Shown here: positions 5,634 to 58,175 of the stretch, in pieces
Layout of the letters: each line of letters starts with the position of its first letter
How positions within the stretch are numbered: the stretch's first letter is position 1
Source of the DNA: an uncultured Planctomycetales bacterium
Lineage (GTDB): Bacteria > Omnitrophota > Gorgyraeia > Zapsychrales > CAYRXT01
Length of the DNA: 64,000 nt
Direction of reading: 5' to 3'
Assembly: GCA_964428315.1 (NCBI GenBank)
Contig: CAYRXT010000007.1
Coordinates: 5,407-69,406 of the forward strand
Made by a program: the position numbers and the translations under genes
The notes under the pieces: model-generated
Told to the model about the DNA's origin: nothing
Seen by the model: only the letters and a program-made list of their open reading frames with translations
Databases searched by the model: none

Positions 5634-5989
5634 CGGTTACAGAACCCCTCGGTTCAGGCGGCCGGGCAGAAACCGCCGGCGGCCGGTCCGTTAACGTGTG
5701 TTTTATCCTGAAGGCGGGTTTGAGGTGAGCTGCAAAACTCGAAAGACAATATTAAGAAATAAGGAAAAAAATAATGCCGGTTTGCGTCCAAAGAAAGAAC
5801 AACCGCGCAGGCTCGGGTTTTGTCTCTCACTCTTCGCCCAATCCGTTAACATCAAGGTGTTGTCAACGTAAAAAATATAGCATCGATTGTTGAATGGGCA
5901 ATGCCCGGAACACAGAAATTCCCATTGAAAAGAAAGCGTTTTTATCTTTTTTACGGCTCCAAACCAATTGAAAACAAAGCCTTATACGA

Positions 5990-6024
5990 AAAACCGGTTC
6001 CACCTACGAGGTGGAACCGGTTTT
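5990..6024. repeat. REP-like hairpin, left flank of the RAYT.
   Basis: aaaaccggttccacc-tacga-ggtggaaccggtttt: a 15-bp perfect inverted repeat with a 5-nt loop. Confidence 0.8.
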
Positions 6025-8052: not shown

Positions 8053-9705
8053 TCACATCTCCTTGAGTTCCTGCGGCTCCTCATAATCTTTGAACGGCTT
8101 GATCGTCCCCCGCCATTGTTTATACCGGTCGTCCGCCCTTACGACATGTGGCGTGATAAAGATAACGATCTCCGTCTTCGTTATGGTGTCGCTCTGGTTG
8201 CGGAACAAGGCGCCCAGCAACGGGATATCCATCAAAAGGGGGACGCCTTTTTCCACATGGCTCTTGTCGTCCTTTTTTAACCCGGCAAGGATGATGGTAT
8301 TCCCGTCCTTGACCATGACGGTCGTCTCCACCTCGGTCTTGTTGACCTGGGGGATCCCGCCGCCCTGTGATTCGATCTTGGCCGTGACCGTGGAGATCTC
8401 CGGCTTCAGGCTCATGGTGACAAATCCGTCGTCGTTGATGGTCGGCGTCACCAGCAGTTTCAACCCCACATCGACAAAACGCACGTCTTCGCTGGTGATC
8501 GCGTTGTCGCCCGTGCCCGATGTAGTGGAAATGATGTAGGGCACGGAGTCCCCTATATGGATCTTGGCCTCTTCATTGTTGGTCACCAGGAGCTTGGGAT
8601 TGGAGAGGATCTTCGTGTCGCTGACCTGCTGGAGCGCGCGCAGATTGATCTCAAACTGATCCGGCGTGATATCGCCGTAGCCGATCTTGCCGAATTCTGA
8701 ATAAAGGGCGTCGCTGCTGCTGAGGTTGTTTTCATCAAGAAAGATACTTCGGAAGCTGAGGTCTCTCAGACCGGAGTGTTCGCTGCGCTTGAAATCCGTC
8801 TCCCAGTCAATGCCGAAATCAAACTGGGGCTTAAATGTAATCTGGATGACCCTGGCTTCGATGAGGACTTCCTTCGTCTGGGCATCCAGCTCTTGAATCA
8901 GCTCCTCGACCTCCTTGCGCCGTCCGGGAAGCGCCCGGACGATCAGCTTGTTGGACCGCTCGTCTGGCGTGATGCTGCCGACCGCATTGGCGTCGATTCG
9001 CGCACGCAGCTTCTCGGCGACCACATCGGCCTTGGCGTACTGCAGGCTGAAGACCATCGACTCGACGGGCATGTCGATCCGGCGGATGGCCGCCATCATC
9101 TTCTCCAGGGTCTGCGGCGTGTCGATCATCGCCACGGTCCCGGTGTCTTCGTCAATGATAATCTTGCCCAAATTGCTCTTGATGGAATCCAGCGCGGCAA
9201 GGATATAGCTCGGCTTGGCGTAATGCAGGCGGACGATTTTTACCTCCTGCTTGTCGGAAAAGCGCCGGCCGTAAAGGGCGGAATATTCCGATTCCGTCAT
9301 GACATGGACGATGCCGTTCTTGACCTCGTAAGCCAGGTTGTTGGAAATCAGGATGATGTCCAGGGCGTCCCTGATGGAAACGCTCTTGAGGTACAGCGTC
9401 ACCCGGCCGGTCACGGTTGGATTGGTGACGACGTTAAACTCTCCCTTCAGCGCCAGAAACTTTATGACGTCCACCATGTTCATGTCGCGCACGTCGAGGG
9501 TGATCTTGCGGCCCAGCCCCTCAACGTCGTCCGGGCCGGTCTCCTCACTGAATTCCGAGCCTGCGTCGGTCCCGCTGACACCCGGTACCGGCATGGCATG
9601 CGCCTGCGGCGTGACGCCGGCAGGCTGAGCCTTCAGAGTCCCGGCAAAAACCGCGATGCCGAAAACCGTCGCCGCGATGATGACGCATCCTTTAACACTG
9701 CGCAT
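8053..9705 (-). CDS. Secretin of the GspD/PilQ/MshL family (type II secretion / type IV pilus outer-membrane channel).
   Basis: Signal peptide MRSVKGCVIIAATVFGIAVFAGTLKAQ. N-terminal secretin-N-like domains. C-terminal secretin domain …VETTVMVKDGNTIILAGLKKDDKSHVEKGVPLLMDIPLLGALFRNQSDTITKTEIVIFITPHVV. Confidence 0.8.
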   Translation of the reverse strand: MRSVKGCVIIAATVFGIAVFAGTLKAQPAGVTPQAHAMPVPGVSGTDAGSEFSEETGPDDVEGLGRKITLDVRDMNMVDVIKFLALKGEFNVVTNPTVTGRVTLYLKSVSIRDALDIILISNNLAYEVKNGIVHVMTESEYSALYGRRFSDKQEVKIVRLHYAKPSYILAALDSIKSNLGKIIIDEDTGTVAMIDTPQTLEKMMAAIRRIDMPVESMVFSLQYAKADVVAEKLRARIDANAVGSITPDERSNKLIVRALPGRRKEVEELIQELDAQTKEVLIEARVIQITFKPQFDFGIDWETDFKRSEHSGLRDLSFRSIFLDENNLSSSDALYSEFGKIGYGDITPDQFEINLRALQQVSDTKILSNPKLLVTNNEEAKIHIGDSVPYIISTTSGTGDNAITSEDVRFVDVGLKLLVTPTINDDGFVTMSLKPEISTVTAKIESQGGGIPQVNKTEVETTVMVKDGNTIILAGLKKDDKSHVEKGVPLLMDIPLLGALFRNQSDTITKTEIVIFITPHVVRADDRYKQWRGTIKPFKDYEEPQELKEM

Positions 9706-9733
9706 AAATTTCCATCCCCTAACTTCCCGGCTT

Positions 9734-10444
9734 TTAAAGATTCATCATCATCTCTTCGGATTTATAGCCCAGGATGACTTCGTCGCCGCGGATCGCCTTG
9801 ACCTTCAGGGCGTCGATGCTCTCTCCCACGGCCACGAAATGCGTAATGCCGTTTACCGTGTCCTCGATCATCGCGATGGGGGCCCCTTCGTCCTCCACGC
9901 TGGAAATCCCCACCAGCCTGAGATTCTTCGTGAGTGCCGTAATCTGCACGGCTTCGGGCGCTTCGTCAGGTGATTTTTCCACCACCTTCTTCTCGTAGGG
10001 CTGAAAAATATTCCTGTGTTCCAGCAGGCTCAGGTATAGGGAGACATCCGGCGAAGACGGTACCGCGATCTGCATCGACCCTTTGCTCCCCTCATCCCGA
10101 GAAACAGCGATCTCCTGCCTGGTGTAACGCAGTCCGTTTACAATATTCCAAACGAAAAGCAGGCATACAACCATAAGGGCGGCCAGGAGGAGATTGTTCA
10201 CTTCCCTCATCCCGAAGCTCGGCCGGCCAGAACCGCTGCGAAGGCCGGAAAAGAGTCCCTCCAGGGCCGGCGGCAGGTTCAGGCCCGGGAGGCCCAGTCC
10301 CTTGACTGAGGTAGCGACCGCCGCCGCCTCCATTTCCCCCGAGGCTTCTTCCTTTTCGGCCTCTACGGCCGGGGCATCACCTCCCTGCTCTTCAATCAGA
10401 CGCAGGAGTTTCTGCTCGCCTGTTTCTTTTTTTTTTGCTGACAT
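9734..10444 (-). CDS. Single-pass membrane protein, possibly a GspC/PilP-like secretin-interacting component.
   Basis: Charged N-terminus, one TM helix (LLLAALMVVCLLFVWNIV) and a periplasmic C-terminal beta-rich segment (…LRLVGISSVEDEGAPIAMIEDTVNGITHFVAVGESIDALKVKAIRGDEVILGY) resembling HR/PilP-type domains. A poly(A)10 tract covers codons 3-6. Confidence 0.35.
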   Translation of the reverse strand: MSAKKKETGEQKLLRLIEEQGGDAPAVEAEKEEASGEMEAAAVATSVKGLGLPGLNLPPALEGLFSGLRSGSGRPSFGMREVNNLLLAALMVVCLLFVWNIVNGLRYTRQEIAVSRDEGSKGSMQIAVPSSPDVSLYLSLLEHRNIFQPYEKKVVEKSPDEAPEAVQITALTKNLRLVGISSVEDEGAPIAMIEDTVNGITHFVAVGESIDALKVKAIRGDEVILGYKSEEMMMNL

Positions 10445-10453
10445 AGTGTGTCC

Positions 10454-10501
10454 AGGTCACCAGGTCACCAGGTCACATGTGACCTTGTGACTTTGTGACT
10501 T
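10454..10501. repeat. Triple tandem inverted-repeat array: (aggtcacc)x3 followed by (tgtgac[ct]t)x3. It is a 48-bp imperfect palindrome with a perfect 16-bp core, aggtcacatgtgacct.
   Basis: aggtcacc aggtcacc aggtcaca | tgtgacct tgtgactt tgtgactt lies in the 65-nt gap between the exeA-like stop (10510) and the downstream ATG (10444), ending 9 nt before that start codon. Confidence 0.7.
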
Positions 10502-10509
10502 CGCGCCGT

Positions 10510-11406
10510 TCACGCCAAATCCTCCGTCTTCTGATAAGCCGGCTTGCTGATCATCGTCTTGCGGTCCCATCCCGCCTGTCGCTCCTTATCCAGGACATCC
10601 CTCACGACAGACTTGTCGGCGACAGGCTTGTTCTGCATAACCATCTCCTTCAGGACGCGGTGGCAGAGCATCGTGATACTGCGGGGGTATCCACGCGAGT
10701 AATTGTATATCTCGCTGACGGCATCCGGAGAGAACAATTCCATCGCAGAGGCATACCCGGCCTTCCGGATCCGGTATTCTATCATTTCCTTTGTCTCTTT
10801 GGGGCCCAGCGGATTCAGCGTGTACTTAAAACTTATCCGGTCAATGAAATTGGACATGTTCGCTATCTTCGAATATAACTCCATCTGTCCAAGAAGCACA
10901 AGCTGTATAAGTTTGTATTCATTGGTTTCGAAATTCAGCAAAACCCGCAGGACCTCCAGCGTTGTGAGGTCCAGCTTCTGCGCCTCATCAATAATGAGGA
11001 TGACGGTCTTCTTCTCCTCGACACTCTTCTGGATCAGAAATCTTTCAACGGCGTCACGCAGATCCAGGATGCGTTCAATGGCCGGCATGTCCGACGGCTC
11101 CAGTTCGATATTAAAATTTCTTACCAGTGATATCAAAAACTGCTCTTCATTTTCAAAGGCCGGATTGAGTATCATGTGAAATATCAGATCGCCGCGCCTT
11201 CGCAGTTCTTGAACAAGCTTGCGCGACAGGCTCGTCTTCCCGGTCCCGATATCACCGAATATGACTGTGAGACCACGGCGCAAACGCAGTTCAATCAGGA
11301 TGTTGGTCAAGGCCATATCGTGTTCGCGCGTAAGATAGAAAAATTCCGGATCGGGGCTCGTTGAGAATGGTTCTTTTTTAAAACCAAGCAGACTGTGATA
11401 GGACAT
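10510..11406 (-). CDS. ExeA/GspA/MshM-like AAA ATPase (secretin assembly/piloting ATPase).
   Basis: N-terminus MSYHSLLGFKKEPF, Walker A GDIGTGKTSL and Walker B ILIIDEAQ, with ExeA-family architecture. An AT-rich promoter region lies upstream (11407-11528). Confidence 0.75.
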   Translation of the reverse strand: MSYHSLLGFKKEPFSTSPDPEFFYLTREHDMALTNILIELRLRRGLTVIFGDIGTGKTSLSRKLVQELRRRGDLIFHMILNPAFENEEQFLISLVRNFNIELEPSDMPAIERILDLRDAVERFLIQKSVEEKKTVILIIDEAQKLDLTTLEVLRVLLNFETNEYKLIQLVLLGQMELYSKIANMSNFIDRISFKYTLNPLGPKETKEMIEYRIRKAGYASAMELFSPDAVSEIYNYSRGYPRSITMLCHRVLKEMVMQNKPVADKSVVRDVLDKERQAGWDRKTMISKPAYQKTEDLA

Positions 11407-22146: not shown

Positions 22147-24294
22147 TTATTCTTGCGGCCGGGGCAATTGCACCCGGTAAAAGTGTTCGTTGTCCGCCCT
22201 CCCCGTGCGATAAACCGTCACAAAATAATAGCCCGTGTCCAGTTTCAAAGGCGGTTCAAAGACAAATTGCACCCGGCCTCCTTTTGCCTCCGGAGACAGG
22301 GATGCGCTTTCAAGCGGCAGGGAGCGGTAATGGTCTCCGGCGGGAGTCCAGGCCGGGTCTTCGGCCGTGGCGTTGAAGACGTAGGCGACAAGAGAATCTT
22401 GGGGTTGACCGACTTTGGCGATATGCAAGGGGACGGAATAAAGACGGCGCCCCTCCTTCAGCGGAAGTAAATTGCCCCGGTAAAGATAACGCCGATGGAT
22501 GGTGCCGATATTCCTGAGGCCTTCCCTCGCAGGTTTCAGCATCTCTTCGCCTGGGGCATTGGCATGGCGGTCCGCGAAGAGCTTCCGGGCATCCAGGACA
22601 TGAACCTTCGTCCCATCCGGCGATTCATGGTCAAACTGGCCGAGGATAAGCTTCCGGTAGGAAAGGATCTCTTCCTCATGCATCCAGTAACGGCTCGAGA
22701 CGAGGGTCTTGAAAGAGGCCCGCGCGTAACCGCCTATTAAATTGTCGGCGACAAGCGCGTTGAGATAAACGTCTTCGTCAAAAGGCGCATAATCACTTGT
22801 GGCGGCAATATAAATCGAATTGCCTGAAACCGGCGGCAACAGAATGTGGCCGTCCCTCACCTCATAGACATGGCGGATGGTCTTGAACCTAATGCCTTCC
22901 GACGTCTTCGGATTAAGATATTGCGTGAAATAGGTCTTGTGGGGATGATTCGTGTGCACATAAAGCGTGTCGATACCTCTCTCTTCCAGAAAACGCGAGA
23001 GATAGGTCGTGGCCATCCGGCAGGGCATAATGTCCGTGAGAAAGATGAAAAGATTGCCGGCGCCATGGACCATGATGAAAAAGACAAGCAGGCCGATAAA
23101 AACGCGACGCGTCCATTGAGAGAGAGCCGCTCCATACTCCCGGCCGAAGTCATGCAGACCATACGCGATCAGAAGTATCATCCCAACAAGCGAAGGGAAA
23201 TAATTTCCGCCGTACTGGGCGACCTGCCGCAGTTCGGCCAGCAGGGGCGGCGAAAGGCTCAGGAGAATCATTCCCGCGGTGATCAGGCCCTGGACCGTTT
23301 TCCATTGGAAACGTTTCAGGGTTTTGATGATAAGATAAAAAAACGCCAGTCCATAAAGGGGAAAAACGACGGGCGTGATCAATCGAAAGTAGCGGATAAT
23401 CCATAATGCGCCCCCGCGCGCCCGAGAAGGGGTCTCCAGCCATTCCTGGAGCACGGGCTGATTGTAATAGAAGTGATTATAACGGCTGCTGATTTCGATA
23501 TATTCAAAAAAGCGGCGGATGTTTGAACCGATATCCGGATAGGTCAGATAAACCACCGGAATAACCGCACCCGCCAGGACGCATACCATGCCCCCTGCGG
23601 CCCTGCCGGCCAAGACTGAAATTCTCTTTTGGTCGGCCGAGCCTGCGTAGACGCTGATTCCGAAGGCCGCCACCCACAGCGGAATATAAAGCGCCGAGAC
23701 CGTGGAAGAAAACAACGCGCCGCCCAGGGCTAAACCGGAAAGAAAACAGAATAAAGCAAAGGGCCACGGCTTCTGCCCGGGGGTGCCCGCCCTTTGGGTC
23801 AGATAAACAGCCGCCAAAGACAGGAATAGCCCGAGCGGCTGATGTTTGGCAAACAATATATAGAGGTAGGGCCAAAAGGAAAAGGCAAAAAGACTAAAAC
23901 TGACCCATCCGATGAGCCTGCCCCAGTACCGGCTTGTGATCAAAAAGACGAGAACAGCTGACAAGGCCGTCGATATCAGGTCAAGGAGCAGGAACGGCCG
24001 CAGGGTCCTCGTGTCATGGATCAACCTCTGCATCCATGACGCAAAGAGAATGAACATTTCCTTGCCGTGCAGCCACCGGACCTTGTCCTGATCGAGCAGA
24101 GAATGCATCTCGGAGACATAACGGAAAGAGGGCAAACGCACCGCGACGTCAAAGAGGTAGACCTTCGTGTCGGTCGGCCAGAAATTGATATCCCAGGACG
24201 CCATCCCGATTAGGATGACTATCAGAAAGGATATGACCGCAATAATCATAAGATCTTGCTGAAAGACGGGACAAGGGGATGACGTCTTGCGCAT
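22147..24294 (-). CDS. Large polytopic membrane protein of GT-C glycosyltransferase architecture (ArnT/PMT/GT39-83-like), with a ~300-aa C-terminal periplasmic domain.
   Basis: About 12 predicted TM helices in the first 470 aa, then a soluble C-terminal domain. The track start at 24510 overlaps the tRNA-Arg, so the start is trimmed to ATG 24294 (MRKTSS…); ATG 24249 is an alternative. Confidence 0.45.
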   Translation of the reverse strand: MRKTSSPCPVFQQDLMIIAVISFLIVILIGMASWDINFWPTDTKVYLFDVAVRLPSFRYVSEMHSLLDQDKVRWLHGKEMFILFASWMQRLIHDTRTLRPFLLLDLISTALSAVLVFLITSRYWGRLIGWVSFSLFAFSFWPYLYILFAKHQPLGLFLSLAAVYLTQRAGTPGQKPWPFALFCFLSGLALGGALFSSTVSALYIPLWVAAFGISVYAGSADQKRISVLAGRAAGGMVCVLAGAVIPVVYLTYPDIGSNIRRFFEYIEISSRYNHFYYNQPVLQEWLETPSRARGGALWIIRYFRLITPVVFPLYGLAFFYLIIKTLKRFQWKTVQGLITAGMILLSLSPPLLAELRQVAQYGGNYFPSLVGMILLIAYGLHDFGREYGAALSQWTRRVFIGLLVFFIMVHGAGNLFIFLTDIMPCRMATTYLSRFLEERGIDTLYVHTNHPHKTYFTQYLNPKTSEGIRFKTIRHVYEVRDGHILLPPVSGNSIYIAATSDYAPFDEDVYLNALVADNLIGGYARASFKTLVSSRYWMHEEEILSYRKLILGQFDHESPDGTKVHVLDARKLFADRHANAPGEEMLKPAREGLRNIGTIHRRYLYRGNLLPLKEGRRLYSVPLHIAKVGQPQDSLVAYVFNATAEDPAWTPAGDHYRSLPLESASLSPEAKGGRVQFVFEPPLKLDTGYYFVTVYRTGRADNEHFYRVQLPRPQE

Positions 24295-24451
24295 AGCCGT
24301 TTGCGTGTGCCGTTTTGCCCGGTCCGGGAGGCCTCGCCCCCAGCACTTTTTTATGTCAAGAAATGTCAAAAGGCTTCCTTGATTGTGGCCGGGATTTCGC
24401 CTCTCCAGTTCTTTTTTAAGCCGGACGGCAGGATCCGTCCGCGGTGAACTG

Positions 24452-24525
24452 CCCGCCCGGCACGACTCGAACGTGCAACACCTAGGTCCGAAGCCTAGTG
24501 CTCTATCCAATTGAGCTACGGGCGG
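24452..24525 (-). tRNA. tRNA-Arg (anticodon TCG).
   Basis: Cloverleaf read by eye: acceptor CCGCCCG/CGGGCGG, D-arm GCTC-AATTGGATA-GAGC, anticodon arm CTAGG-CTTCGGA-CCTAG (U33, anticodon UCG, G37), variable loop GTGTT, T-arm GCACG-TTCGAGT-CGTGC, discriminator G. CCA is not encoded. Confidence 0.7.
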
Positions 24526-50535: not shown

Positions 50536-50613
50536 TGGTCGGGGAGATGGGATTTGAACCCATGACCTCAACGTCCCGAACGTTGCGCGCTAGCCAAGCT
50601 GCGCTACTCCCCG
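50536..50613 (-). tRNA. tRNA-Pro (anticodon CGG), with CCA encoded.
   Basis: CGGGGAG-TA-GCGC-AGCTTGGCTA-GCGC-G-CAACG-TTCGGGA-CGTTG-AGGTC-ATGGG-TTCAAAT-CCCAT-CTCCCCG-A-CCA. C1:G72 and A73 are typical of bacterial tRNA-Pro. Confidence 0.8.
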
Positions 50614-50693: not shown

Positions 50694-51131
50694 TCATTCA
50701 ATCTCCTTAACGCTAAAAACCACTTGCCCTTCGCACACGGTTTTTTCTCCCACAGTGGCCTTTGTCGTGATAATCCCCGTCCTGGCCATAAACTTGACAT
50801 GTCCGACTTCGATCCGCAGTTGATCACCGGGGACAACGGGCGCGGAGAACTTCGCCGTAACCTTGCCCAGATAATAGATCAGCTTCTTGCCGACAAGATT
50901 TTTTGAATAATAAAAATATATGCACCCCGCCTGGGCCATGGCCTCGACGATAAGCACGCCGGGCATCACTTTTTCTCCGGGGAAATGGCCTTCAAAAAAG
51001 TGTTCGTTCGCCGACACGTTCTTGACCGCGACCAGCCTTTCATTGGGCACAACCTCTTCAACGCGGTCAATAAGGATGAAGGGGAACCGGTGCGGTATAA
51101 TTTTTTGAATTTCGAGAATATCTAATGGCAT
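50694..51131 (-). CDS. fabZ: 3-hydroxyacyl-ACP dehydratase.
   Basis: …EHFFEGHFPGEKVMPGVLIVEAMAQ. Confidence 0.9.
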   Translation of the reverse strand: MPLDILEIQKIIPHRFPFILIDRVEEVVPNERLVAVKNVSANEHFFEGHFPGEKVMPGVLIVEAMAQAGCIYFYYSKNLVGKKLIYYLGKVTAKFSAPVVPGDQLRIEVGHVKFMARTGIITTKATVGEKTVCEGQVVFSVKEIE

Positions 51132-51145
51132 GCCATGTCCTTTCT

Positions 51146-51901
51146 TTACCGTAACGACAGCCCTCCGTCAACCCGGAGGACCTCACCGTGAATATACTGT
51201 CCCCCTGGCCCCAACAAGAACCGGATACAGGCCGCGACATCCCGAGGCGTACCCAGCCGGCCCAAAGGGATCGTCTCACGCAGGGCCCTTTTCTTTGAAT
51301 CGGATATCACGTCGAGCATGGGGGTGTCGACATATCCGGGGGCGACGGCGTTCACCCTAACTCCATAACCTCCGACCTCCTTGGCCAGGGCCTTGGTGAA
51401 GGCGATAATAGCGCCTTTTGAAGCGCTGTAGTTCGTCTGGCGCGGCAGGCCGGTTATACCTGCCACGGAACTCATATTGATAATAATCCCGCTTTTTTGC
51501 TTCAGAAAGCCCACAATGCACGAGCGGGTGGCATTATATATTCCGTCCAGATTTGTCGCCATCACCTTTCTCCAATCCTCCTGTGTCATTAGCATCAGGG
51601 CCTTGTCCCGAATTATCCCGGCATTATTGATAAGGATATCGATCCTGCCGAATTCCTTAACTACGTTTTTGCACCATTGATTCACCGCGTCAAATTCTGT
51701 TATGTCCACGCCATATCCCCGGCAGCGCCCCCCTGACGCCTTCACCTCTTTTTCCAGGGTACGCGCTTCGCCGGCATGCCTGAAAAAATTGAAAGCCACC
51801 GTGCATCCTTCCTGGGCGATCATCGCGACGATCTCCCGTCCGATACCGCGGGAACCGCCGGTGACGACAGCGACCTTCCCCTCTAACACTTTAGTCCTCA
51901 T
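51146..51901 (-). CDS. fabG: 3-oxoacyl-ACP reductase (SDR).
   Basis: TGGSRGIG…NAG…S…YSASK. Confidence 0.85.
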   Translation of the reverse strand: MRTKVLEGKVAVVTGGSRGIGREIVAMIAQEGCTVAFNFFRHAGEARTLEKEVKASGGRCRGYGVDITEFDAVNQWCKNVVKEFGRIDILINNAGIIRDKALMLMTQEDWRKVMATNLDGIYNATRSCIVGFLKQKSGIIINMSSVAGITGLPRQTNYSASKGAIIAFTKALAKEVGGYGVRVNAVAPGYVDTPMLDVISDSKKRALRETIPLGRLGTPRDVAACIRFLLGPGGQYIHGEVLRVDGGLSLR

Positions 51902-53136
51902 GCTTTATACCTCTTGAGCATGATGCACGAATTGGCGCCGTTTGGCCCGAAGGTAATAATCAGGACCGTGTTGACTTTTGCCTTTCGCGATTGATTCGGG
52001 ACGTAATCCAGATCGCAATCCGGGTCCCTCTCCCGATAATTCACTGTCGGCGGTATAAAATCCTTGTTAAGGACGCCGAGACCGGCCGCTGTCATGAATG
52101 ATCCGGTCACGCTAAAACATTCGCCCGTCATGGATTTTACCGCACTCACCGGAATTTTGTAAGCCCTTTGGCCAAAAATCTCCTTAATGGCATCTGTCTC
52201 GATCTTATCGGCAGCCTTGGTCGAGTTGGCGTTAGCACAGATATAATCCACATCACTGGTCATACAGCCCGCGTCTTCAAGGGTGGCGCGTATCGCCTCT
52301 TTGAGCCCCGTCCCACGGGGATTATACTTGTTTATCCGGAATGGATCAAAGGAATATCCGAAGCCGGCGATTTCCCCGAGGACGGAGGCCCGGCGGTGTT
52401 TGGCATGGTCCAGATCCTCCAGGGCCATCAGGCACGCCCCTTCCCCGAACGTGATACCGTTGCGTCTGGCGTCGAACGGGCAGTTGATGAATCCCTGCCC
52501 TTCGATGGAACCGGAAAGAAACTTCAGTATATGAAAACCAAAAAAGGTCTGCTTACACATCTCTTCGACGCCTCCGGCATAAACAACGCTGGCGCGGTCT
52601 ATTTTTATGAAGTCGTAGGCGTAATGGATAGCATCGATGCTGGCGGTAAAGCCCGTGGATATCGTCGTGTTGAATCCCTGAATGTTGTTCCAGATGGAGA
52701 CCTGGCTGGCCGGCGAATTGATGACGGTATTGGGAAAAAGCGCGGGGTTCGTAAAGCGCGGGCCTTCGCGGAGAGTCACCTCGTCAAAGTCGCTGATGCT
52801 TTTGACACTGCCGAGCGTTGTCCCCACGCTCACTCCGACCCCGTTTGTGTTTTCTTCGGTGATGGCGAACCCGCTGTCGGCCACCGCCAGCTTGGAAGCG
52901 GAGACTAACAGCCTTGTGCTGCGGTCCAGGGACCGCAGGCCCTTTTTTCCCATATAAGGCTCGGGATCAAAATCGCTGATTTCCCCTCCTATATCAACGA
53001 GAAATTCATTTGTGTCGAAAAGTGTGAGCTTCCGGTATCCCACCGTTCCCTTTTCCAGGGCATCCCAGAATTCTTCCTTGCCCTTGCCGTTCGGCGCAAG
53101 TATGCCTAACCCCGTGATGACTACACGTCGTGCCAT
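51898..53136 (-). CDS. Beta-ketoacyl-ACP synthase II (FabF) homologue with all three catalytic residues substituted; a presumably inactive KS/CLF-like paralogue.
   Basis: Full-length KAS II fold. At the E. coli FabF C163 position it reads TISTGFTASIDAI (Cys to Phe). At H303 it reads ICANANSTKAADK (His to Asn). At H340 it reads KSMTGECFSVTG (His to Glu). All three were confirmed by re-translating DNA at 52560-52680, 52201-52260 and 52101-52160. Confidence 0.75.
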   Translation of the reverse strand: MARRVVITGLGILAPNGKGKEEFWDALEKGTVGYRKLTLFDTNEFLVDIGGEISDFDPEPYMGKKGLRSLDRSTRLLVSASKLAVADSGFAITEENTNGVGVSVGTTLGSVKSISDFDEVTLREGPRFTNPALFPNTVINSPASQVSIWNNIQGFNTTISTGFTASIDAIHYAYDFIKIDRASVVYAGGVEEMCKQTFFGFHILKFLSGSIEGQGFINCPFDARRNGITFGEGACLMALEDLDHAKHRRASVLGEIAGFGYSFDPFRINKYNPRGTGLKEAIRATLEDAGCMTSDVDYICANANSTKAADKIETDAIKEIFGQRAYKIPVSAVKSMTGECFSVTGSFMTAAGLGVLNKDFIPPTVNYRERDPDCDLDYVPNQSRKAKVNTVLIITFGPNGANSCIMLKRYKA

Positions 53137-53139
53137 TTC

Positions 53140-53754
53140 TTATCTCTTCTTTTTGACATTAAGCAAACCCATCTGCGCCAGACGCAGGATGTGCTTGGCG
53201 ATCAGGTCGGTTTCAATGTTCACCCTGTCGCCCTTTTCCTTGTATCCCAGCGTCGTCACGCTCAGCGTGTGGGGAATGATGTAGACCGAAAATTCCTTCC
53301 GTCCGATATCGCCGACGGTAAGGCTGATGCCATCTACGCTGACGGAGCCTTTTGTAACAAGCTGTACGAGCAAATCCCGCGGTGGTTCAATGCGGTATTC
53401 ACAGTAATGCCTTCGGGTTATCTTCTTACGAATCATGCCGATCCCGTCCACATGGCCCTGGACAAAATGTCCTCCCAGGGGGGCGCCCGCTTTAAGGGCC
53501 CTCTCGAGGTTGACCCGATATCCCTCAGCGCAAAAACCCAGTGTCGTCCTGGCTATGGTTTCTTTCATCAGATCAAAACAAAATGAATCTCTGCTTTTTT
53601 TCGTGACTGTCAAGCATACCCCTTCAACGGCGATGCTGTCACCGGTTTTTGTTCGCTTAAGCGTCTTTTGTGCGGCGATCGTCAAGGTGAGCAGGTTTTT
53701 TTTCCTGACGATGCGGCGCACCACACCCTTCTCTTCAACAATCCCGCTAAACAT
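53140..53754 (-). CDS. ribE: Riboflavin synthase.
   Basis: MFSGIVEEKG…; two lumazine-binding repeats. Confidence 0.85.
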   Translation of the reverse strand: MFSGIVEEKGVVRRIVRKKNLLTLTIAAQKTLKRTKTGDSIAVEGVCLTVTKKSRDSFCFDLMKETIARTTLGFCAEGYRVNLERALKAGAPLGGHFVQGHVDGIGMIRKKITRRHYCEYRIEPPRDLLVQLVTKGSVSVDGISLTVGDIGRKEFSVYIIPHTLSVTTLGYKEKGDRVNIETDLIAKHILRLAQMGLLNVKKKR

Positions 53755-54841
53755 ATTGCACATACCCCTCGATAAGGATATCCTCTGCGATCCGCCAGAA
53801 GTCCATGTCCCGCAGGAGGATCGTCTTGTTCACGTCTCCGGTCTTCAAGCCGATGATGGAACTCAAGGCCTTCTCGTCCCCCAGTATCTTCGGGGCGATA
53901 AAAATCATGGCCTTATCCGCGAGTTTTTCTCTGAAGAATTCTCCGATCACATGCGCGCCGCCTTCCACCAGAAGGCTTGTCACCTCTTTTTGGCCCAAAA
54001 GCTCCACTAGGCGAGACAATTGCAGGCGGCCGTTTTTAAGCGGACAGACTATCACATTATACCCTTTTTTCCTGAACCGTTCGACCTTTATGCGCGAAGC
54101 CCTGGAGGACACCGCCAGGATAACGTCCTGCGGCCGGCTTTTGTTCATAACCCTGGCACGGGCAGAAATGCGCAGGGCGCTGTCCAGGATAATTTTCTTA
54201 ATCCGTTTGGTCTTGTCCAAGGCATTCAGAAGAGGATCATCCTTCAAAATCGTCCTGATCCCGACAAGAATACCGTCGAAATCATTACGCAGGAATCGGG
54301 CATATGCGCGGGTCTTGGCCGAGGTAATCCACTTGGAGTTCCCGCCGGAGGTCGCAATCTTTCCGTCCAGCGTCTGGGCCGATTTGACAACGACAAACGG
54401 CTGTCCGCTTCGGATATATTTTATAAAAACTTCGTTAAGCCTTTTCAGCTCCTCTTCAAGCAGACCAGATTTAACGCGGATACCCGCCCGCGCAAGTTTT
54501 TTCAGAGAACGTCCGTTATTCAGCGGATTGGGGTCCTTCATCCCCACAACGACTTCCCGGATACCGGACTGGATGATCCGATCCGCACACGGAGGGGTAC
54601 GGCCGTAGTGGGAGCACGGTTCAAGGGTGACGTACATCTTGGCTCCGCGGGCCCGTGCACCGGCCTTCTTTAAGGCCATGACCTCGGCATGATCCTCTCC
54701 GCAGCGGCGATGATAGCCTCCAGCGATAATCCTCCCACCCTTCACGATCAAAGCCCCCACCATGGGGTTCGGAGAAGTCCTGCCCCTCCCCTTAAGGGCC
54801 AGATCCATGGCAAGCCGCATATAATCGGAGTCTTTCTTCAT
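53747..54841 (-). CDS. ribD: Bifunctional diaminohydroxyphosphoribosylaminopyrimidine deaminase / 5-amino-6-(5-phosphoribosylamino)uracil reductase.
   Basis: HAEVMAL…PCSHYGRTPPC deaminase motifs plus a C-terminal reductase domain. Confidence 0.9.
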   Translation of the reverse strand: MKKDSDYMRLAMDLALKGRGRTSPNPMVGALIVKGGRIIAGGYHRRCGEDHAEVMALKKAGARARGAKMYVTLEPCSHYGRTPPCADRIIQSGIREVVVGMKDPNPLNNGRSLKKLARAGIRVKSGLLEEELKRLNEVFIKYIRSGQPFVVVKSAQTLDGKIATSGGNSKWITSAKTRAYARFLRNDFDGILVGIRTILKDDPLLNALDKTKRIKKIILDSALRISARARVMNKSRPQDVILAVSSRASRIKVERFRKKGYNVIVCPLKNGRLQLSRLVELLGQKEVTSLLVEGGAHVIGEFFREKLADKAMIFIAPKILGDEKALSSIIGLKTGDVNKTILLRDMDFWRIAEDILIEGYVQYV

Positions 54842-55668
54842 CGCCGTTGGTCCAGACGTTCTTTCATTTTTTCTATCAATTCGTAGGGGATCTTCGCCTT
54901 GCCGATAAATGTGTTTCTCTTATACTCCCCGTGGGCATCCGATCCCCCCGTCATTAAGAGTCCGTAACGCCCGGCCAAATCCCGATAAAATTCTGTGACA
55001 GGCCTGGCGACATTCGGGTAGAAAACCTCGATCCCTTCAAGTCCTGAATCCACCAGAGAAGGTATCATATCATCTCTCCGCGTAACCATAGGATGCGCCA
55101 TAACGGCAATCCCACCGCCGGAGCGAATCATGGCTATGGCTTCAAAGGGTGTCTGCATGGGATAACAGACATAAGCCGGGCCGTCATCTCCTATGTACCG
55201 GTCAAAGGCCTCCTTGACCGTCGCACATTTTCCCTTTTTCACCAAGACCCGGGCCAGATGCGGCCGGCCCACATTACGGCTTCTGACTTCCTTCAAAACC
55301 TCATTTACCGTCAATTCGGTGATCCCATTCTCCCTAAGACGGTCAATCATGCGCGCCATGCGATGGATCCTCTTTTCCCGGATCACGGACAGGCCTTTCT
55401 GAAACGCCGGATCAGCGACATCCAAAAAATAACCAAGGATATGGATATCTCTTCCATCCCATGAGGACGACAATTCGATGCCGGGAATGACTTCCAGATG
55501 ATAATCTTCGGCCAGGGGGAGGGCCTCCAACACGCCATCAACGGTGTCGTGATCGCAGATGCTGAGACATGTCAGTCCGGCCCGGCTGCCGCCTTCCAGG
55601 ACATCCCGCGGAGACAATGATCCGTCGGAAAAAAAGGTGTGAATATGCAGATCGGCAAAATGTGTCAC
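54838..55668 (-). CDS. PHP-domain phosphoesterase.
   Basis: ADLHIHTFFSDGS…CDHDT. Confidence 0.7.
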   Translation of the reverse strand: MTHFADLHIHTFFSDGSLSPRDVLEGGSRAGLTCLSICDHDTVDGVLEALPLAEDYHLEVIPGIELSSSWDGRDIHILGYFLDVADPAFQKGLSVIREKRIHRMARMIDRLRENGITELTVNEVLKEVRSRNVGRPHLARVLVKKGKCATVKEAFDRYIGDDGPAYVCYPMQTPFEAIAMIRSGGGIAVMAHPMVTRRDDMIPSLVDSGLEGIEVFYPNVARPVTEFYRDLAGRYGLLMTGGSDAHGEYKRNTFIGKAKIPYELIEKMKERLDQRR

Positions 55669-55679
55669 GGCGTATGACG

Positions 55680-56093
55680 CTAGGATATAATCTCCGACTT
55701 ATGGATCTTGTCCAGGACGCCGTTGATGAATTTTCCTGAATCAATATCCCCATATTTCTTTGCCATCTCAACGGCCTCATTGATAGTGACCTTGGGGGGG
55801 ATATCGGGCATATATTTCAGTTCGCAGACGCCCAACCGGAGGATATTCCGATCCACGACCGCCATGCGGTTCAACTCCCAGTTGGCCGCATAGCGGCTTA
55901 TGCATTGGTCCAGATCGGTAAAGTTCTTCTCAACCATCGAGGTCAGCCTCATGCAGAATGCCCTGACCTCGGGTTTCTCGTCTGCCTCAACCGACAGGAA
56001 TTCGGACGCGGCCTCCAGAATGCCTTGACGCGTTATTTCAGCCTGATAAAGAATCTTTAGAACCCATTCCCGGGCTAATGTCCTCTTACGCAT
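55680..56093 (-). CDS. nusB: Transcription antitermination factor NusB.
   Basis: NusB fold; conserved neighbour of ribH. Confidence 0.85.
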
Positions 56094-56102
56094 AGCAAAT
56101 GT

Positions 56103-56567
56103 TCACATGCTCCTCATAAGATTGACCATGGATACAGCCGCCGAGGCCGCTTCCTGTCCTTTATTATTGCCGTCCTCACGTGAACGCTCATAAGCCTGAT
56201 TTACCGTATCCGCCGTCAACACGCCCAAGATGACCGGTTTCCCCGTCATCAGACCCGCCCGCACAATGCCCTGGGCCATGCCGTTTGACACGATCTCAAA
56301 ATGATAGGTCTCCCCGCGAATGACCGCTCCCAGGCAAATGACAGCGCCTATGTTCCTTTTCTTGGCCAGCTTGAGAGCGCAGACCGGGATCTCGAACGCG
56401 CCGGGGACCCAGACTACGTTGATGTCTTTTTCCTTGACCCCGCGTCGCCTCAATTCGCGCAAACATCCCTCCAGTAATCGCTGCGTGATAAATTCGTTGA
56501 AGCGCGATGCGACGACGGCGAATCTTCCGCCCTGGTTCTTTGGTTTCCGCGAAGTTACCGCCGCCAT
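56103..56567 (-). CDS. ribH: 6,7-dimethyl-8-ribityllumazine synthase.
   Basis: …FAVVASRFNEFIT…VPGAFEIP…. Confidence 0.9.
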   Translation of the reverse strand: MAAVTSRKPKNQGGRFAVVASRFNEFITQRLLEGCLRELRRRGVKEKDINVVWVPGAFEIPVCALKLAKKRNIGAVICLGAVIRGETYHFEIVSNGMAQGIVRAGLMTGKPVILGVLTADTVNQAYERSREDGNNKGQEAASAAVSMVNLMRSM

Positions 56568-56582
56568 GGTCGTCCTTCCAAA

Positions 56583-57782
56583 TCAGAAAAGGTGCCCAAG
56601 TTTGTTTTTTTTCGTGCGCAGGTATTGTTCATTGGTGGGTTTATGGGGGACCTTAAGGGAAACCCGCTCAACGACCGAGAGACCGTACCCTTCAAGGCCG
56701 ACGATCTTGCGCGGATTATTCGTCAAGAGACGAATCTGCTTAACGCCGAGATCAACCAGAATCTGGGCGCCGATTCCGTAGTCGCGCAGATCCGCAGGGA
56801 ATCCCAACGCCTCGTTGGCCTCCACGGTATCCATACCGCTGTCCTGCAAATGATAGGCCTTAATCTTGTTCAGCAGACCTATGCCCCGGCCTTCCTGGCG
56901 CATGTACAACAGGATCCCCGATCCGTTCATTTGTATGACCTTCAAGGAGGCCTCCAGCTGTTCCCCGCAGTCGCAACGATACGATTTGAAGACGTCCCCC
57001 GTCAGACATTCCGACTGGACACGGACCAGCTCGGGCACCGTTCCGTCCACTTTGCCCAGGACCAAAGCGATATGACAGATGCCGTCGACCATAGACTCAT
57101 ATCCGATCATCCGGAATTTACCCCAAGGCGTAGGCAAAACGGTTTCGACGACCCGTTTGATGAGCTTCTCATATTTCCGCCGATATTCGATAAGGCTGTC
57201 TATCGTACATATCTTGATCCCGTGTTTTCTGGCAAAATCAACAAGCTCCTGCGTTCTGGCCATGGTCCCGTTCTCATTCATAATCTCGCAGATTACGCCG
57301 GCGGGATACAAGCCCGCGATACGCATAAGATCGACGGAGGCCTCCGTGTGACCGGCTCTGACGAGAACCCCACCTTTTCTCGCCCGTAGAGGAAAAAGGT
57401 GACCCGGGGTCACCAGATCGCTCGGATTGGATTTCGGGTCGATCAAGACCTCCACCGTCTTGGCGCGGTCAAAGGCCGATATGCCCGTCGTTACGCCAAA
57501 TTTGGCATCCACCGACATGGCCCATGCCGTCGAACAATGATCGTGTTTTGTCGAATAATCGTCCCGCATAGGAAAAAGATGCAGCTGATCCAACCGCTCA
57601 CCTTCCATCGGAACGCAGATAAGACCTCTCGCCTCCCTGGCCATGAAATTAATGATGTCCGGCGTAATAAATTGAGCGGCCACCAGGATATCACCTTCAT
57701 TCTCACGGCCCTCATCATCCATCACGATGACCATTTTCCCGTTTTTGAGATCTTCGACAATTTCTGTTATGGAATTGAACAT
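56583..57782 (-). CDS. ribBA: Bifunctional 3,4-dihydroxy-2-butanone-4-phosphate synthase / GTP cyclohydrolase II.
   Basis: Start ATG 57782 has an AAGGAGAGG RBS; the track starts at 57815. DHBP synthase and GCHII domains. Confidence 0.9.
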   Translation of the reverse strand: MFNSITEIVEDLKNGKMVIVMDDEGRENEGDILVAAQFITPDIINFMAREARGLICVPMEGERLDQLHLFPMRDDYSTKHDHCSTAWAMSVDAKFGVTTGISAFDRAKTVEVLIDPKSNPSDLVTPGHLFPLRARKGGVLVRAGHTEASVDLMRIAGLYPAGVICEIMNENGTMARTQELVDFARKHGIKICTIDSLIEYRRKYEKLIKRVVETVLPTPWGKFRMIGYESMVDGICHIALVLGKVDGTVPELVRVQSECLTGDVFKSYRCDCGEQLEASLKVIQMNGSGILLYMRQEGRGIGLLNKIKAYHLQDSGMDTVEANEALGFPADLRDYGIGAQILVDLGVKQIRLLTNNPRKIVGLEGYGLSVVERVSLKVPHKPTNEQYLRTKKNKLGHLF

Positions 57783-57812
57783 ATGCGCACCTCTCCTTTT
57801 TTTCCAAAGGAA

Positions 57813-58078
57813 CAAAAAATCCCCGAATCATTCTCTCGGGGCCTGAACGCAGTCTTTACGTTAACTTTCTCCCCTCTAGGCTTTGGTTCCGCTCATCGCG
57901 GCCCCCCCTGCATAATAACAGGACTATTGGCTCAAGATTCCCTCATCCTCAAGGGTGAGGCCACTTGATCTGCTAACCTTAAGAACATTATCGCCGAATG
58001 CCCGCTGTTGTCCTTAAGTGCTCGTAGGCTTCCCCCGCAAACAGCGGAGATCACTACCAGCTGGGAATTTCACCCGAC
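57813..58078 (-). ncRNA. FMN riboswitch (RFN element) with an intrinsic-terminator expression platform, in the ribBA 5' leader.
   Basis: Minus strand begins …CTTTCGGGGTCGGGTGAAATTCCCAGCTGGTAG… (hallmark GGGTGAAATTCCC) and has …GGATGAGGGAATC… near the 3' part. It ends with hairpin CCCCGAGAGAATGATTCGGGG + ATTTTTTG (57813-57843), about 25 nt before the ribBA RBS. Confidence 0.6.
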
Positions 58079-58083
58079 CCCGA

Positions 58084-58112
58084 AAGTTTTTTGTAATATA
58101 TTCTAAATAACC
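58084..58112 (-). promoter_or_regulatory. Sigma70 promoter driving the FMN riboswitch and rib operon.
   Basis: Minus strand TTGACA-17 nt-TATATT, with +1 near the aptamer start. Confidence 0.55.
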
Positions 58113-58175
58113 AGACCTGTCAAGTTTTTTCGGATTGAAAAATATTGAAATCAAAGGGCTTATCCCACTCATCAC

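What the first reader, a model, noticed from the sequence alone, without database searches (positions are those of the whole stretch)
51898..53136. FabF-like ketosynthase with the entire Cys-His-His catalytic triad replaced (Phe/Asn/Glu)
The protein aligns end-to-end with KAS II, but the nucleophile (E. coli FabF C163) is Phe in TISTGFTASIDAI, H303 is Asn in ICANANSTK and H340 is Glu in KSMTGECFSV. A triple substitution cannot condense acyl-ACP with malonyl-ACP. The gene sits in an operon with active-looking fabG and fabZ. It could be a chain-length-factor-like partner of another KS, an ACP-binding scaffold or regulator of fatty-acid or lipid A synthesis, or a neofunctionalised enzyme. It is not pseudogenised, since the ORF is intact at 412 aa.
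Basis: partly seen in the sequence, partly recalled or inferred. Interest (0 to 1): 0.6.

Follow-up and report, generated by a model that had tools for sequence, protein, structure and literature searches.

The report
Orphan dead ketosynthase, chain-length-factor type
This intact gene encodes a fatty-acid ketosynthase look-alike that has lost all three catalytic residues; it belongs to the same family as a recently described helper subunit from anammox bacteria, but here it is encoded without its active partner enzyme.

Summary
The ORF lies on the minus strand (51898-53136, 412 aa). It has a full KAS II fold, with Phe163, Asn302 and Glu339 in place of Cys, His and His. These substitutions are fixed: 120 of 120 orthologues, all from Candidatus Omnitrophota, keep Phe and Glu.

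The protein is not a canonical FabF. Its closest solved relative (E 1e-118, 47% identity) is the inactive chain of PDB 9s5h. I infer this to be amxFabFmut, the chain-length-factor-like subunit of the anammox FabF heterodimer (bioRxiv 2026). All triad-less homologues I collected form one clade (50 of 50 bootstraps), sister to the active amxFabF2-type ketosynthases ("KS2"). The best-conserved segment is the helix-loop-helix that lines the partner's acyl tunnel in the anammox complex.

What is unusual is the gene context. Most relatives with enough visible context sit next to an active KS2, often with an ACP. This family keeps only dead KS, KR (FabG-like) and DH (FabZ-like), fused to the end of a riboflavin/nusB operon in 5 of 5 contexts. 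No partner KS or ACP lies in the 64-kb window.

The most likely function is a non-catalytic, tunnel-shaping subunit of a heterodimeric ketosynthase. The partner is unidentified. I rate it a new variant of a known kind, of moderate interest.

The parts
51898..53136 (-). Triad-less KAS II paralogue ('KSmut', 412 aa), a chain-length-factor-like dead ketosynthase
   Evidence: ORF and translation. Pfam PF00109 + PF02801. Scores below the curated cutoff of all 21 matching NCBIfam KS models; fabF TIGR03150 scores 353.7 against a cutoff of 493.75. Best PDB match is 9s5h_C, E 1.1e-118. AF2 mean pLDDT 92.9.
52648..52650 (-). Codon for Phe163, at the position of the nucleophilic Cys (E. coli FabF C163)
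   Evidence: HMMER and MAFFT alignments. Phe in 120/120 orthologues.
52231..52233 (-). Codon for Asn302, at the position of the first catalytic His (FabF H303)
   Evidence: Asn in 116/120 orthologues.
52120..52122 (-). Codon for Glu339, at the position of the second catalytic His (FabF H340). Lys334 (52135-52137) is retained.
   Evidence: Glu 120/120 and Lys 120/120. Glu at this position in most triad-less homologues collected.
52705..52770 (-). Helix-loop-helix motif REGPRFTNPALFPNTVINSPAS (residues 123-144). It includes Phe134 and Val138, which I equate with amxFabFmut Phe135/Val139, the residues that line the partner's acyl tunnel.
   Evidence: This is the most conserved segment of the family: residues 109-144 show 0.90 identity within the family against 0.71 for the whole protein, 0.65 against 0.47 to 9s5h_C, and only 0.20 to active KSs. 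It is the lowest-confidence part of the monomer model. Role of the motif from the paper.
51146..51901 (-). FabG-like ketoacyl-ACP reductase (KR, 251 aa). Its start overlaps the KSmut stop by 4 nt.
   Evidence: Pfam and NCBIfam. 48-49% identical to the KR of Omnitrophota KSmut/KS2 clusters, against 42% to a canonical FabG. Catalytic motifs present.
50694..51131 (-). FabZ-like hydroxyacyl-ACP dehydratase (DH, 145 aa)
   Evidence: PF07977; NCBIfam PRK00006 scores 158.8, above its cutoff of 113. 51% identical to the DH of KSmut/KS2 clusters. Equally similar to E. coli FabZ and to PDB 7qv0, a TrEMBL-style-named FabZ chain that I take to be amxFabZ.
53140..57815 (-). Upstream co-oriented genes with short gaps or overlaps: ribBA (56583-57815), ribH (56103-56567), nusB (55680-56093), PHP-domain protein (54838-55668), ribD (53747-54841), ribE (53140-53763). 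The ribE stop lies 3 nt before the KSmut ATG.
   Evidence: ORF list, Pfam calls in syntenic loci, sequence at the junction.
58095..58123 (-). Best sigma-70-like promoter match (TTGACA-17-TATATT, 11/12) upstream of ribBA; a candidate operon promoter
   Evidence: This is a consensus match only.
50536..50613 (-). tRNA-Pro(CGG), marking the downstream end of the KSmut-KR-DH unit

Best explanation
The gene encodes a catalytically dead KAS II paralogue. I propose that it works as the non-catalytic, chain-length-factor-like half of a heterodimeric beta-ketoacyl-ACP synthase, in the way shown for anammox amxFabFmut/amxFabF2.

Proposed mechanism:
- The dead subunit dimerises with an active Cys-His-His ketosynthase.
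- Its strongly conserved helix-loop-helix (FPNTVINSPAS, with Phe134 and Val138) closes over and lines the active subunit's acyl-binding tunnel. This would stabilise the active enzyme and set which chain lengths it accepts.
- The co-translated FabG-like reductase and FabZ-like dehydratase then process the beta-keto product to the enoyl stage.

Shown here:
- the fold and the loss of the triad;
- strict conservation of the substituted residues;
- membership of the clade that contains the 9s5h inactive chain;
- descent of the KSmut-KR-DH trio from KSmut-KR-ACP-DH-KS2 clusters of other Omnitrophota;
- operon structure and conserved synteny.

Inferred, not shown:
- heterodimer formation;
- the identity of the partner;
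- the product.

The partner is not in the window. My split within this explanation is about 55% an amxFabF2-type 'KS2' (with its own ACP) encoded elsewhere in the genome, and about 45% the housekeeping FabF/AcpP.
For: (1) The closest solved relative is the triad-less chain C of PDB 9s5h/9s5i (E 1.1e-118, 400 bits, 47% identity). Canonical FabFs and the active chain B score about 270 bits.
(2) The 2026 preprint shows that amxFabFmut alone is inactive. It co-purifies with amxFabF2, and only the heterodimer decarboxylates malonyl-ACP. Mutating amxFabFmut Phe135/Val139 changes chain-length preference. The window protein keeps both residues within ...LFPNTVIN....
(3) In NJ trees all 59 triad-less sequences form one clade in 50/50 bootstraps. 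These comprise the window family, cluster-borne KSmut and 9s5h_C. The clade is sister to the KS2/amxFabF2 clade, and the window family itself is monophyletic in 50/50.
(4) The sisters of the window family (L117, L153, L162) and the next group out (L085, L086) are Omnitrophota clusters ordered KSmut-KR-ACP-DH-KS2. The window KR and DH are closer to those cluster genes than to a canonical FabG.
(5) The helix-loop-helix is the most constrained region: 0.90 identity within the family, 0.65 to 9s5h_C, and 0.20 to active KSs. It is also the only low-confidence part of the monomer model. This matches its disorder in the amxFabFmut homodimer crystal.
(6) Natural single-chain fusions of an active KS with a dead KS are common: 43 two-domain proteins among the top 150 representative hits, about 40 of them of this kind. 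In many the N-terminal half is most like KS2 and the C-terminal half most like KSmut.
(7) In K. stuttgartiensis each non-canonical KS, including kuste2805 with the same Phe/Asn/Asn/Lys/Glu signature, is listed in the same cluster as a triad-bearing FabF.
Against: No active KS, ACP or phytoene-desaturase-like gene lies in the 64-kb window or within 10 kb in five syntenic contexts.

I compared 120 window-family proteins with 227 Omnitrophota KS2 proteins and found no shared contig length. I also retrieved NCBI accessions for 7 window-family and about 25 KS2 proteins and found no neighbouring accession blocks. The comparison included window-family contigs of 1.2 Mb, 520 kb, 305 kb and 230 kb. Both lists are truncated at 120 hits, so this is only weak evidence that these genomes lack KS2.

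Heterodimer formation was not and could not be tested here. A simple net-charge proxy for the interface asymmetry described in the paper did not reproduce that asymmetry even for the anammox pair, so it says nothing either way.
Confidence: 0.68

Rival explanations
1. Stand-alone, neofunctionalised protein. It would act as a homodimer that binds acyl-ACP or another ligand in the remodelled pocket. Possible roles are a sensor or regulator, a scaffold for the co-encoded KR and DH, or an enzyme with new chemistry. No KS partner would be needed.
For: No partner gene is linked in any of five contexts. The 'dead' pocket residues are themselves highly conserved rather than drifting: residues 158-170 show 0.87 and residues 298-306 show 0.91 identity within the family. 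Asn304, Lys334, Asp and Glu are invariant. S. brodae amxFabFmut crystallised as a homodimer. The gene is embedded in a housekeeping operon.
Against: The most conserved segment is the helix-loop-helix, which in the anammox complex serves the partner's tunnel. In the amxFabFmut homodimer that segment is disordered, and the protein alone shows no activity. Phe at the nucleophile position and Pro at the gate position offer no obvious chemistry. Most relatives with enough visible context are paired with an active KS.
Confidence: 0.2
2. Decaying relic. The ORF would be the non-functional remnant of a KSmut-KR-ACP-DH-KS2 cluster that lost its ACP and KS2 and is only incidentally still open.
For: The trio looks like the ancestral cluster minus ACP and KS2. 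No partner has been found.
Against: The ORF is intact and about 410 aa long in at least 120 clusters of sequences (clustered at 90% identity) that have diverged to 65% identity. The substituted residues are invariant, the helix-loop-helix is 90% identical, and synteny is fixed. The start and stop codons overlap or abut those of the neighbouring genes, which suggests translational coupling.
Confidence: 0.03
3. Artefact. A misalignment or local frame error would be hiding a normal Cys-His-His FabF.
For: None found.
Against: Pairwise HMMER alignments to several solved FabFs and a 247-sequence MAFFT alignment agree on the columns. The flanking motifs align without gaps. The same protein sequence occurs in two independent assemblies, NCBI and Logan, and the same substitutions occur in 120 orthologues.
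Confidence: 0.01

Closest known systems
amxFabFmut (KustE3606 / Broful02170), the inactive subunit of the anammox amxFabFhet heterodimer. I infer that PDB 9s5h/9s5i chain C is this protein. Source: Granatino et al., bioRxiv 10.64898/2026.05.19.726425.
   Same: It has the KAS II fold and a similar length (412 aa). The triad is replaced, with Asn and Glu at the two His positions, and Lys335 is kept. The tunnel-lining helix-loop-helix with Phe and Val is conserved. The two proteins share a monophyletic clade and are 47% identical.
   Different: The nucleophile position is Phe here, but Val or Thr in amxFabFmut. The gate position is Pro rather than Arg. There is no adjacent amxFabF2, amxACP, phytoene-desaturase-like gene or B12 radical-SAM gene. 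Instead the gene is fused to a riboflavin/nusB operon together with a KR and a DH. The host is Omnitrophota, which is not known to make ladderanes.
Kuste2805, the 'non-canonical FabB' of K. stuttgartiensis (Rattray et al. 2009, PMC2649909; Javidpour et al. 2016, PMC4790861)
   Same: Its published active-site signature is Phe163/Asn298/Asn300/Lys328/Glu333. This equals window Phe163/Asn302/Asn304/Lys334/Glu339.
   Different: Kuste2805 keeps the gate Phe392, which is Pro here. It is listed in one cluster with a triad-bearing FabF (kuste2804), an ACP synthase and a B12 radical-SAM enzyme. I could not retrieve its sequence, so orthology is untested.
Omnitrophota KSmut-KR-ACP-DH-KS2 clusters (with or without a hydrolase and a phytoene-desaturase-like gene). 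They resemble what antiSMASH reports as 'ladderane' BGCs in non-anammox phyla, including Omnitrophota (bioRxiv 10.1101/2022.12.20.521206); I did not run antiSMASH on them.
   Same: The KSmut, KR and DH are homologous (44-58%, 48-49% and 51% identity). The clusters come from the same phylum and are the immediate sister groups in the tree.
   Different: Those clusters carry their own ACP and an active KS2, whereas the window locus has neither. The product of those clusters is also unknown.
Type II PKS chain length factors (KS-beta: actinorhodin ActI-ORF2 1tqy_B, ishigamide Iga12 6kxd/6kxf)
   Same: The working principle is the same: an inactive KS paralogue heterodimerises with an active KS and shapes the acyl tunnel.
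   Different: The relationship is much more distant (1tqy_B E 2.9e-38, against 1e-80 for FabFs). The classical CLF has Gln at the Cys position; here it is Phe. No adjacent KS-alpha or PKS tailoring genes are present. This is an analogue, not a family member.
Canonical FabF (KAS II)
   Same: The fold is the same (TM 0.96 to B. subtilis FabF). Identity is 36%, the length is the same, and Lys335, Asp311 and Glu314 are retained.
   Different: The Cys-His-His triad and the gate Phe are all replaced. The protein scores below the curated cutoff of every NCBIfam FabF/FabB model it matches.

Membership tests
[quoted passage not shown] | Cys163-His303-His340 catalytic triad | tested here: not met
   Phe163/Asn302/Glu339
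[quoted passage not shown] | Score at or above the curated equivalog cutoff | tested here: not met
   353.7 bits against a cutoff of 493.75. All 21 NCBIfam KS models that match are below their cutoffs.
[quoted passage not shown] | Thiolase-type KAS fold over the full length | tested here: met
   Pfam N and C domains. AF2 pLDDT 92.9 and Foldseek TM 0.96 to 4ls5/4ls8.
amxFabFmut-type dead KS (chain-length-factor-like subunit of a FAS-type heterodimer) | KAS II paralogue with the triad replaced and Lys335 kept, typically with Glu at the second His | tested here: met
amxFabFmut-type dead KS (chain-length-factor-like subunit of a FAS-type heterodimer) | Phylogenetic placement with amxFabFmut, to the exclusion of active KSs | tested here: met
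   The non-CHH clade is monophyletic in 50/50 NJ bootstraps and includes 9s5h_C. The phmmer score is 400 bits against about 270 bits for FabFs.
amxFabFmut-type dead KS (chain-length-factor-like subunit of a FAS-type heterodimer) | Conserved helix-loop-helix with the tunnel-lining Phe/Val (amxFabFmut F135/V139) | tested here: met
   LFPNTVIN is present. Region identity is 0.65 to 9s5h_C, against 0.47 overall. The residue mapping is offset by one from the paper's numbering and is my inference.
amxFabFmut-type dead KS (chain-length-factor-like subunit of a FAS-type heterodimer) | Adjacent gene for an active amxFabF2-type partner KS | tested here: not met
   No second KS in the 64-kb window or within 10 kb in 5/5 syntenic loci
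amxFabFmut-type dead KS (chain-length-factor-like subunit of a FAS-type heterodimer) | Physical heterodimer with the active KS; activity only as a heterodimer | not testable with these tools
   This needs co-expression and pull-down, or multimer structure prediction. Only single-chain prediction was available.
Anammox 'Cluster I' ladderane-associated gene cluster | Co-location with amxACP, amxFabZ, a phytoene-desaturase homologue and a B12 radical-SAM enzyme | tested here: not met
   tblastn with the Omnitrophota cluster ACP and PDH (not the anammox proteins) found nothing in the window. Only a FabZ-like gene is present, and it is not specifically amxFabZ-like. No radical-SAM gene lies next to the trio.
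Type II PKS chain length factor (KS-beta) | Gln at the KS Cys position, adjacent KS-alpha, and closest similarity to PKS KS/CLF | tested here: not met
   Phe is at that position and there is no adjacent KS. 1tqy_B scores E 2.9e-38, much weaker than FabFs.
Cispentacin AmcF / aryl-polyene or flexirubin type systems | Score above the curated NCBIfam cutoff | tested here: not met
   AmcF scores 128 against 325. FlxB (for the KR) scores 231.7 against 340. AmcE (for the DH) scores 88 against 140.

The most novel reading that the evidence does not exclude
In a large Omnitrophota lineage the dead KS, together with its KR and DH, may have been cut loose from its dedicated KS2/ACP cluster. It would then have been recruited into housekeeping fatty-acid synthesis and hard-wired into a riboflavin/nusB operon. 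There it would heterodimerise with the ordinary FabF, or act as an alternative chain length factor for one shared KS, to set membrane acyl-chain length. That would make it a chain-length-factor-controlled primary type II fatty-acid synthase. My evidence does not exclude this: no KS2 or ACP was found linked or co-contiged with the family, and Omnitrophota do carry a canonical plsX-fabH-fabD-fabG-acpP-fabF cluster.
Probability: 0.25. Interest if true: 0.75.

Novelty: new variant of a known kind. Interest (0 to 1): 0.5.

Why it matters
The 2026 preprint presents amxFabFmut as the first chain length factor in a fatty-acid pathway, inside a cluster described as unique to ladderane producers. This locus and its relatives suggest a broader picture.

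- **Family size.** The dead-KS family is large: dozens of the top 150 representative clusters (at 50% identity) lack the triad.
- **Distribution.** The family is widespread outside anammox bacteria.
- **An unpaired branch.** One whole Omnitrophota branch keeps the dead subunit under strong purifying selection with no adjacent catalytic partner.

This gives a natural test case for two questions. What does the dead subunit contribute on its own? Can such subunits be shared with, or re-targeted to, housekeeping FabF?

It also cautions against reading antiSMASH 'ladderane' calls, or 'FabF' annotations, in Omnitrophota as evidence for ladderanes or for an extra elongating ketosynthase.

Tried and rejected
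(1) **Second KS, ACP, hydrolase or PDH in the window.** tblastn with window, anammox and Omnitrophota cluster proteins found only the ORF itself and its KR and DH. Pfam on 20 other window ORFs found no lipid genes.

(2) **Locating the partner by co-occurrence.**
- I matched 'longest_contig' values between 120 window-family proteins and 227 KS2 proteins. None matched.
- I compared NCBI accession blocks for 7 window-family and about 25 KS2 proteins. The nearest pair was 3,767 accessions apart, so it is not the same genome.
- I compared GC and tetranucleotide signatures between the window-family 1.17-Mb contig and KS2 contigs from the same JGI sample. Correlations were r = 0.62-0.78, against 0.94 within a genome, so they are different organisms.
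- All three tests are inconclusive, because the hit lists are capped at 120.

(3) **Collection scans.** They yielded many informative clusters but not the partner for this lineage.

(4) **Candidate 'ACP-KS2 only' loci (L113, L163).** The unseen side of each locus could still hold the other genes, so I rejected them as evidence.

(5) **Net-charge proxy for the interface asymmetry reported in the paper.** It failed even for the anammox pair, so it is uninformative.

(6) **Foldseek against the PDB.** The library predates 9s5h, so it only confirms the FabF fold.

(7) **Full-text search for '9S5H'.** It returned no relevant paper, and the preprint's main text has no PDB code. The link between 9s5h and amxFabFhet is my inference from chain lengths, chain names, triad patterns and the two-entry set.

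(8) **Rfam.** No riboswitch or other RNA lies near the operon.
Full report
**Observation**

The ORF at 51898-53136 is intact and encodes 412 aa, but it lies on the minus strand. Pfam finds the N- and C-terminal ketoacyl-synthase domains across the whole length. NCBIfam's FabF equivalog model matches end to end, yet scores 353.7 bits against a curated cutoff of 493.75. None of the 21 KS models that match reaches its cutoff.

HMMER alignments to solved FabFs put three substituted residues at the catalytic positions:
- Phe163 sits opposite the nucleophilic Cys.
- Asn302 sits opposite the first His.
- Glu339 sits opposite the second His.
- Lys334 is retained.

The 120 closest database homologues are 65-100% identical, and every one that carries a source name is labelled Candidatus Omnitrophota/Omnitrophica. 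In them the pattern is fixed:
- Phe in 120/120.
- Asn in 116/120.
- Glu in 120/120.
- Lys in 120/120.
- The gatekeeper Phe400 is Pro in 118/120.

An AlphaFold2 model built on a 90-sequence alignment has mean pLDDT 92.9. It superposes on B. subtilis FabF at TM 0.96.

**What the protein is**

The best match among solved structures is not a FabF. It is chain C of PDB 9s5h/9s5i (E 1.1e-118, 400 bits), a 412-aa protein that carries Val/Asn/Glu at the triad positions. The same entries hold a 413-aa chain B with an intact triad, which scores like ordinary FabFs at about 270 bits.

A bioRxiv preprint of May 2026 (10.64898/2026.05.19.726425) describes such a pair from the anammox bacterium Brocadia fulgida:
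- The active amxFabF2 and the triad-less amxFabFmut are each inactive alone.
- They co-purify as a heterodimer, and the heterodimer decarboxylates malonyl-ACP.
- Residues Phe135 and Val139 on the helix-loop-helix of the dead subunit line the active subunit's acyl tunnel and alter chain-length preference.
- The authors call this the first chain length factor in a fatty-acid pathway.

That 9s5h is this complex is my inference, because the preprint's main text shows no PDB code. By BLASTP the window protein is 47% identical to 9s5h_C, but only 36% identical to chain B and to Listeria FabF.

**Phylogeny**

I collected KS genes from several sources:
- related Omnitrophota loci;
- 80 GTDB genome loci found with the reconstructed amxFabF2 sequence;
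- 120 metagenome loci found with the KS2-specific motif MLGHTMGAA.

In neighbour-joining trees all triad-less sequences form one clade in 50 of 50 bootstraps. This clade contains the window family, the cluster-borne 'KSmut' proteins and 9s5h_C. It is sister to the clade of active amxFabF2-like enzymes, which I call KS2. The window family itself is monophyletic in 50 of 50 bootstraps.

Across the clade the residue at the Cys position varies (F, V, I, S, E, G, Y, A, L, M, T). Glu at the second His and the retained Lys are present in most members.

A full HMMER scan of 1.84 billion representative proteins found dozens of distinct triad-less clusters (at 50% identity) among the top 150 hits. It also found about 40 clusters of single-chain proteins that fuse an active KS to a dead KS. 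This gives general Rosetta-stone support for a physical pairing of the two kinds of domain.

**Gene context**

On the minus strand the gene order is ribBA, ribH, nusB, a PHP-domain gene, ribD, ribE, KSmut, a FabG-like KR, a FabZ-like DH, and then tRNA-Pro.
- The ribE stop lies 3 nt before the KSmut ATG.
- The KSmut stop overlaps the KR start by 4 nt.
- The KR and DH genes are 14 nt apart.
- The best promoter-like match lies upstream of ribBA.

This order recurs in all five contexts examined, down to family members only 65-66% identical. In one of them a toxin/abortive-infection insert splits the KR from the DH.

The KR and DH keep their catalytic motifs. They are closer to the KR and DH of KSmut/KS2 clusters (48-51%) than the KR is to a canonical Omnitrophota FabG (42%).

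**How the relatives are organised**

Other Omnitrophota, including a Velamenicoccus archaeovorus MAG, carry KSmut-KR-ACP-DH-KS2. This is often followed by an alpha/beta hydrolase and a phytoene-desaturase-like flavoprotein. One such genome also has a canonical plsX-fabH-fabD-fabG-acpP-fabF cluster nearby.

Metagenomic loci show the same parts in shuffled orders. The sister groups of the window family (L117, L153, L162, then L085 and L086) all have the full arrangement.

In K. stuttgartiensis each non-canonical KS is listed in the same cluster as a triad-bearing FabF. This includes kuste2805, whose published signature Phe/Asn/Asn/Lys/Glu equals that of the window protein.

Clusters annotated as 'ladderane' by antiSMASH have already been reported in Omnitrophota and other non-anammox phyla, with unknown function.

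The window family therefore looks like the ancestral cluster minus its ACP and KS2, moved to the end of the riboflavin operon.

**Mechanistic reading**

The segment under the strongest constraint is the helix-loop-helix, residues 109-144:

| Comparison | Helix-loop-helix identity | Whole-protein identity |
|---|---|---|
| Within the family | 0.90 | 0.71 |
| To the sister clade | 0.78 | 0.58 |
| To 9s5h_C | 0.65 | 0.47 |
| To active KSs | 0.20 | 0.36 |

This segment contains the equivalents of amxFabFmut Phe135/Val139 (LFPNTVIN). It is also the only low-confidence part of the monomer model, which parallels its disorder in the amxFabFmut homodimer crystal.

This is what one would expect of a subunit whose job is to complete a partner's substrate tunnel. 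I therefore judge a non-catalytic, chain-length-factor-like role in a heterodimeric KS the most likely function (0.68).

**What stays open**

The partner is unidentified. No KS, ACP or PDH lies in the window.

My attempts to show that KS2 occurs in the same genomes all came back negative:
- contig-length matching;
- accession-block matching;
- compositional matching within one metagenome.

The partner may be a KS2 encoded elsewhere, or the housekeeping FabF. The second case would mean a chain length factor acting in primary fatty-acid synthesis.

A stand-alone function remains possible (0.2), given how well the remodelled pocket itself is conserved. Relic and artefact explanations are excluded by the conservation.

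**Verdict**

The protein is a member of the recently described amxFabFmut-type dead-KS family, not a FabF. Its distinctive features are a fixed Phe/Asn/Glu signature and an orphan, operon-embedded arrangement without partner KS or ACP. It is a new variant of a known kind, of moderate interest.

Noticed in passing
window 3-5636 (minus strand): A giant open frame of at least 1,878 codons runs off the left end of the window, so the ORF listing does not show it. Its N-terminus looks like a signal or anchor sequence (…AAAVLGLSGHAFA…), and it contains repeated AGVNW-type motifs. It is probably a very large secreted or surface protein, of a kind I recall being reported for Omnitrophota.
   Followed up: partly
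window 54838-55668 (minus strand): A PHP-domain phosphoesterase gene is wedged between nusB and ribD, overlaps ribD by 4 nt, and is conserved there in all five syntenic loci. It could be the missing phosphatase step of riboflavin synthesis in this phylum. I did not test this.
   Followed up: no
L153:8864-10150, L162:4844-6157 (also L179, L158, L208): A third, divergent KS (428-437 aa) follows KS2 in several Omnitrophota and metagenomic clusters. It has an intact Cys-His-His triad and is only 23-28% identical to FabF.
   Followed up: no
P0245, P0248, P0257, P0264, P0265, P0273, P0274, P0318 and others: About 40 representative clusters are single-chain didomain proteins of 750-870 aa, with an active KS followed by a dead KS. 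In many the N-terminal half is most like KS2/amxFabF2. Many C-terminal halves carry Glu at the second His position and keep the Lys.
   Followed up: partly
L211:12113-15602: In one family member a cassette of about 3.5 kb, including DUF6088 and an AbiEii toxin gene, has been inserted between the KR and the DH. The DH gene is retained downstream.
   Followed up: no
P0404 and P0480: Two KS2 proteins, 76% and 61% identical to an Omnitrophota KS2, are labelled in NCBI as Methanosarcinaceae archaeon and Candidatus Taylorbacteria. Both sit on contigs of 3-4 kb. These are probably mis-binned Omnitrophota contigs.
   Followed up: no
window 22147-24510 (minus strand) and tRNA-Arg 24451-24525: A 787-aa ORF has no Pfam match. 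Its listed TTG start overlaps the tRNA-Arg(TCG) gene on the same strand, so the true start is probably further downstream.
   Followed up: no
window 6023-6700 (minus strand); window 8053-11406: There is a weak IS200/Y1-transposase-like hit (E 7e-6). Next to it lies a type II secretion-like block containing secretin, a T2SS-C-like protein and an AAA ATPase.
   Followed up: no
L006:3418-5853; L092, L125, L164, L185, L200: A second widespread arrangement is acpP-like ACP, then KS2, then a dead KS, often with a PDH a few kb further on. Here the dead KS is only about 35% identical to 9s5h_C. It occurs in Zixibacteria (L006) and in metagenome contigs of unknown taxonomy. The KS-then-dead-KS order matches the order of the two KS hits in the Planctomycetes locus L005.
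   Followed up: partly
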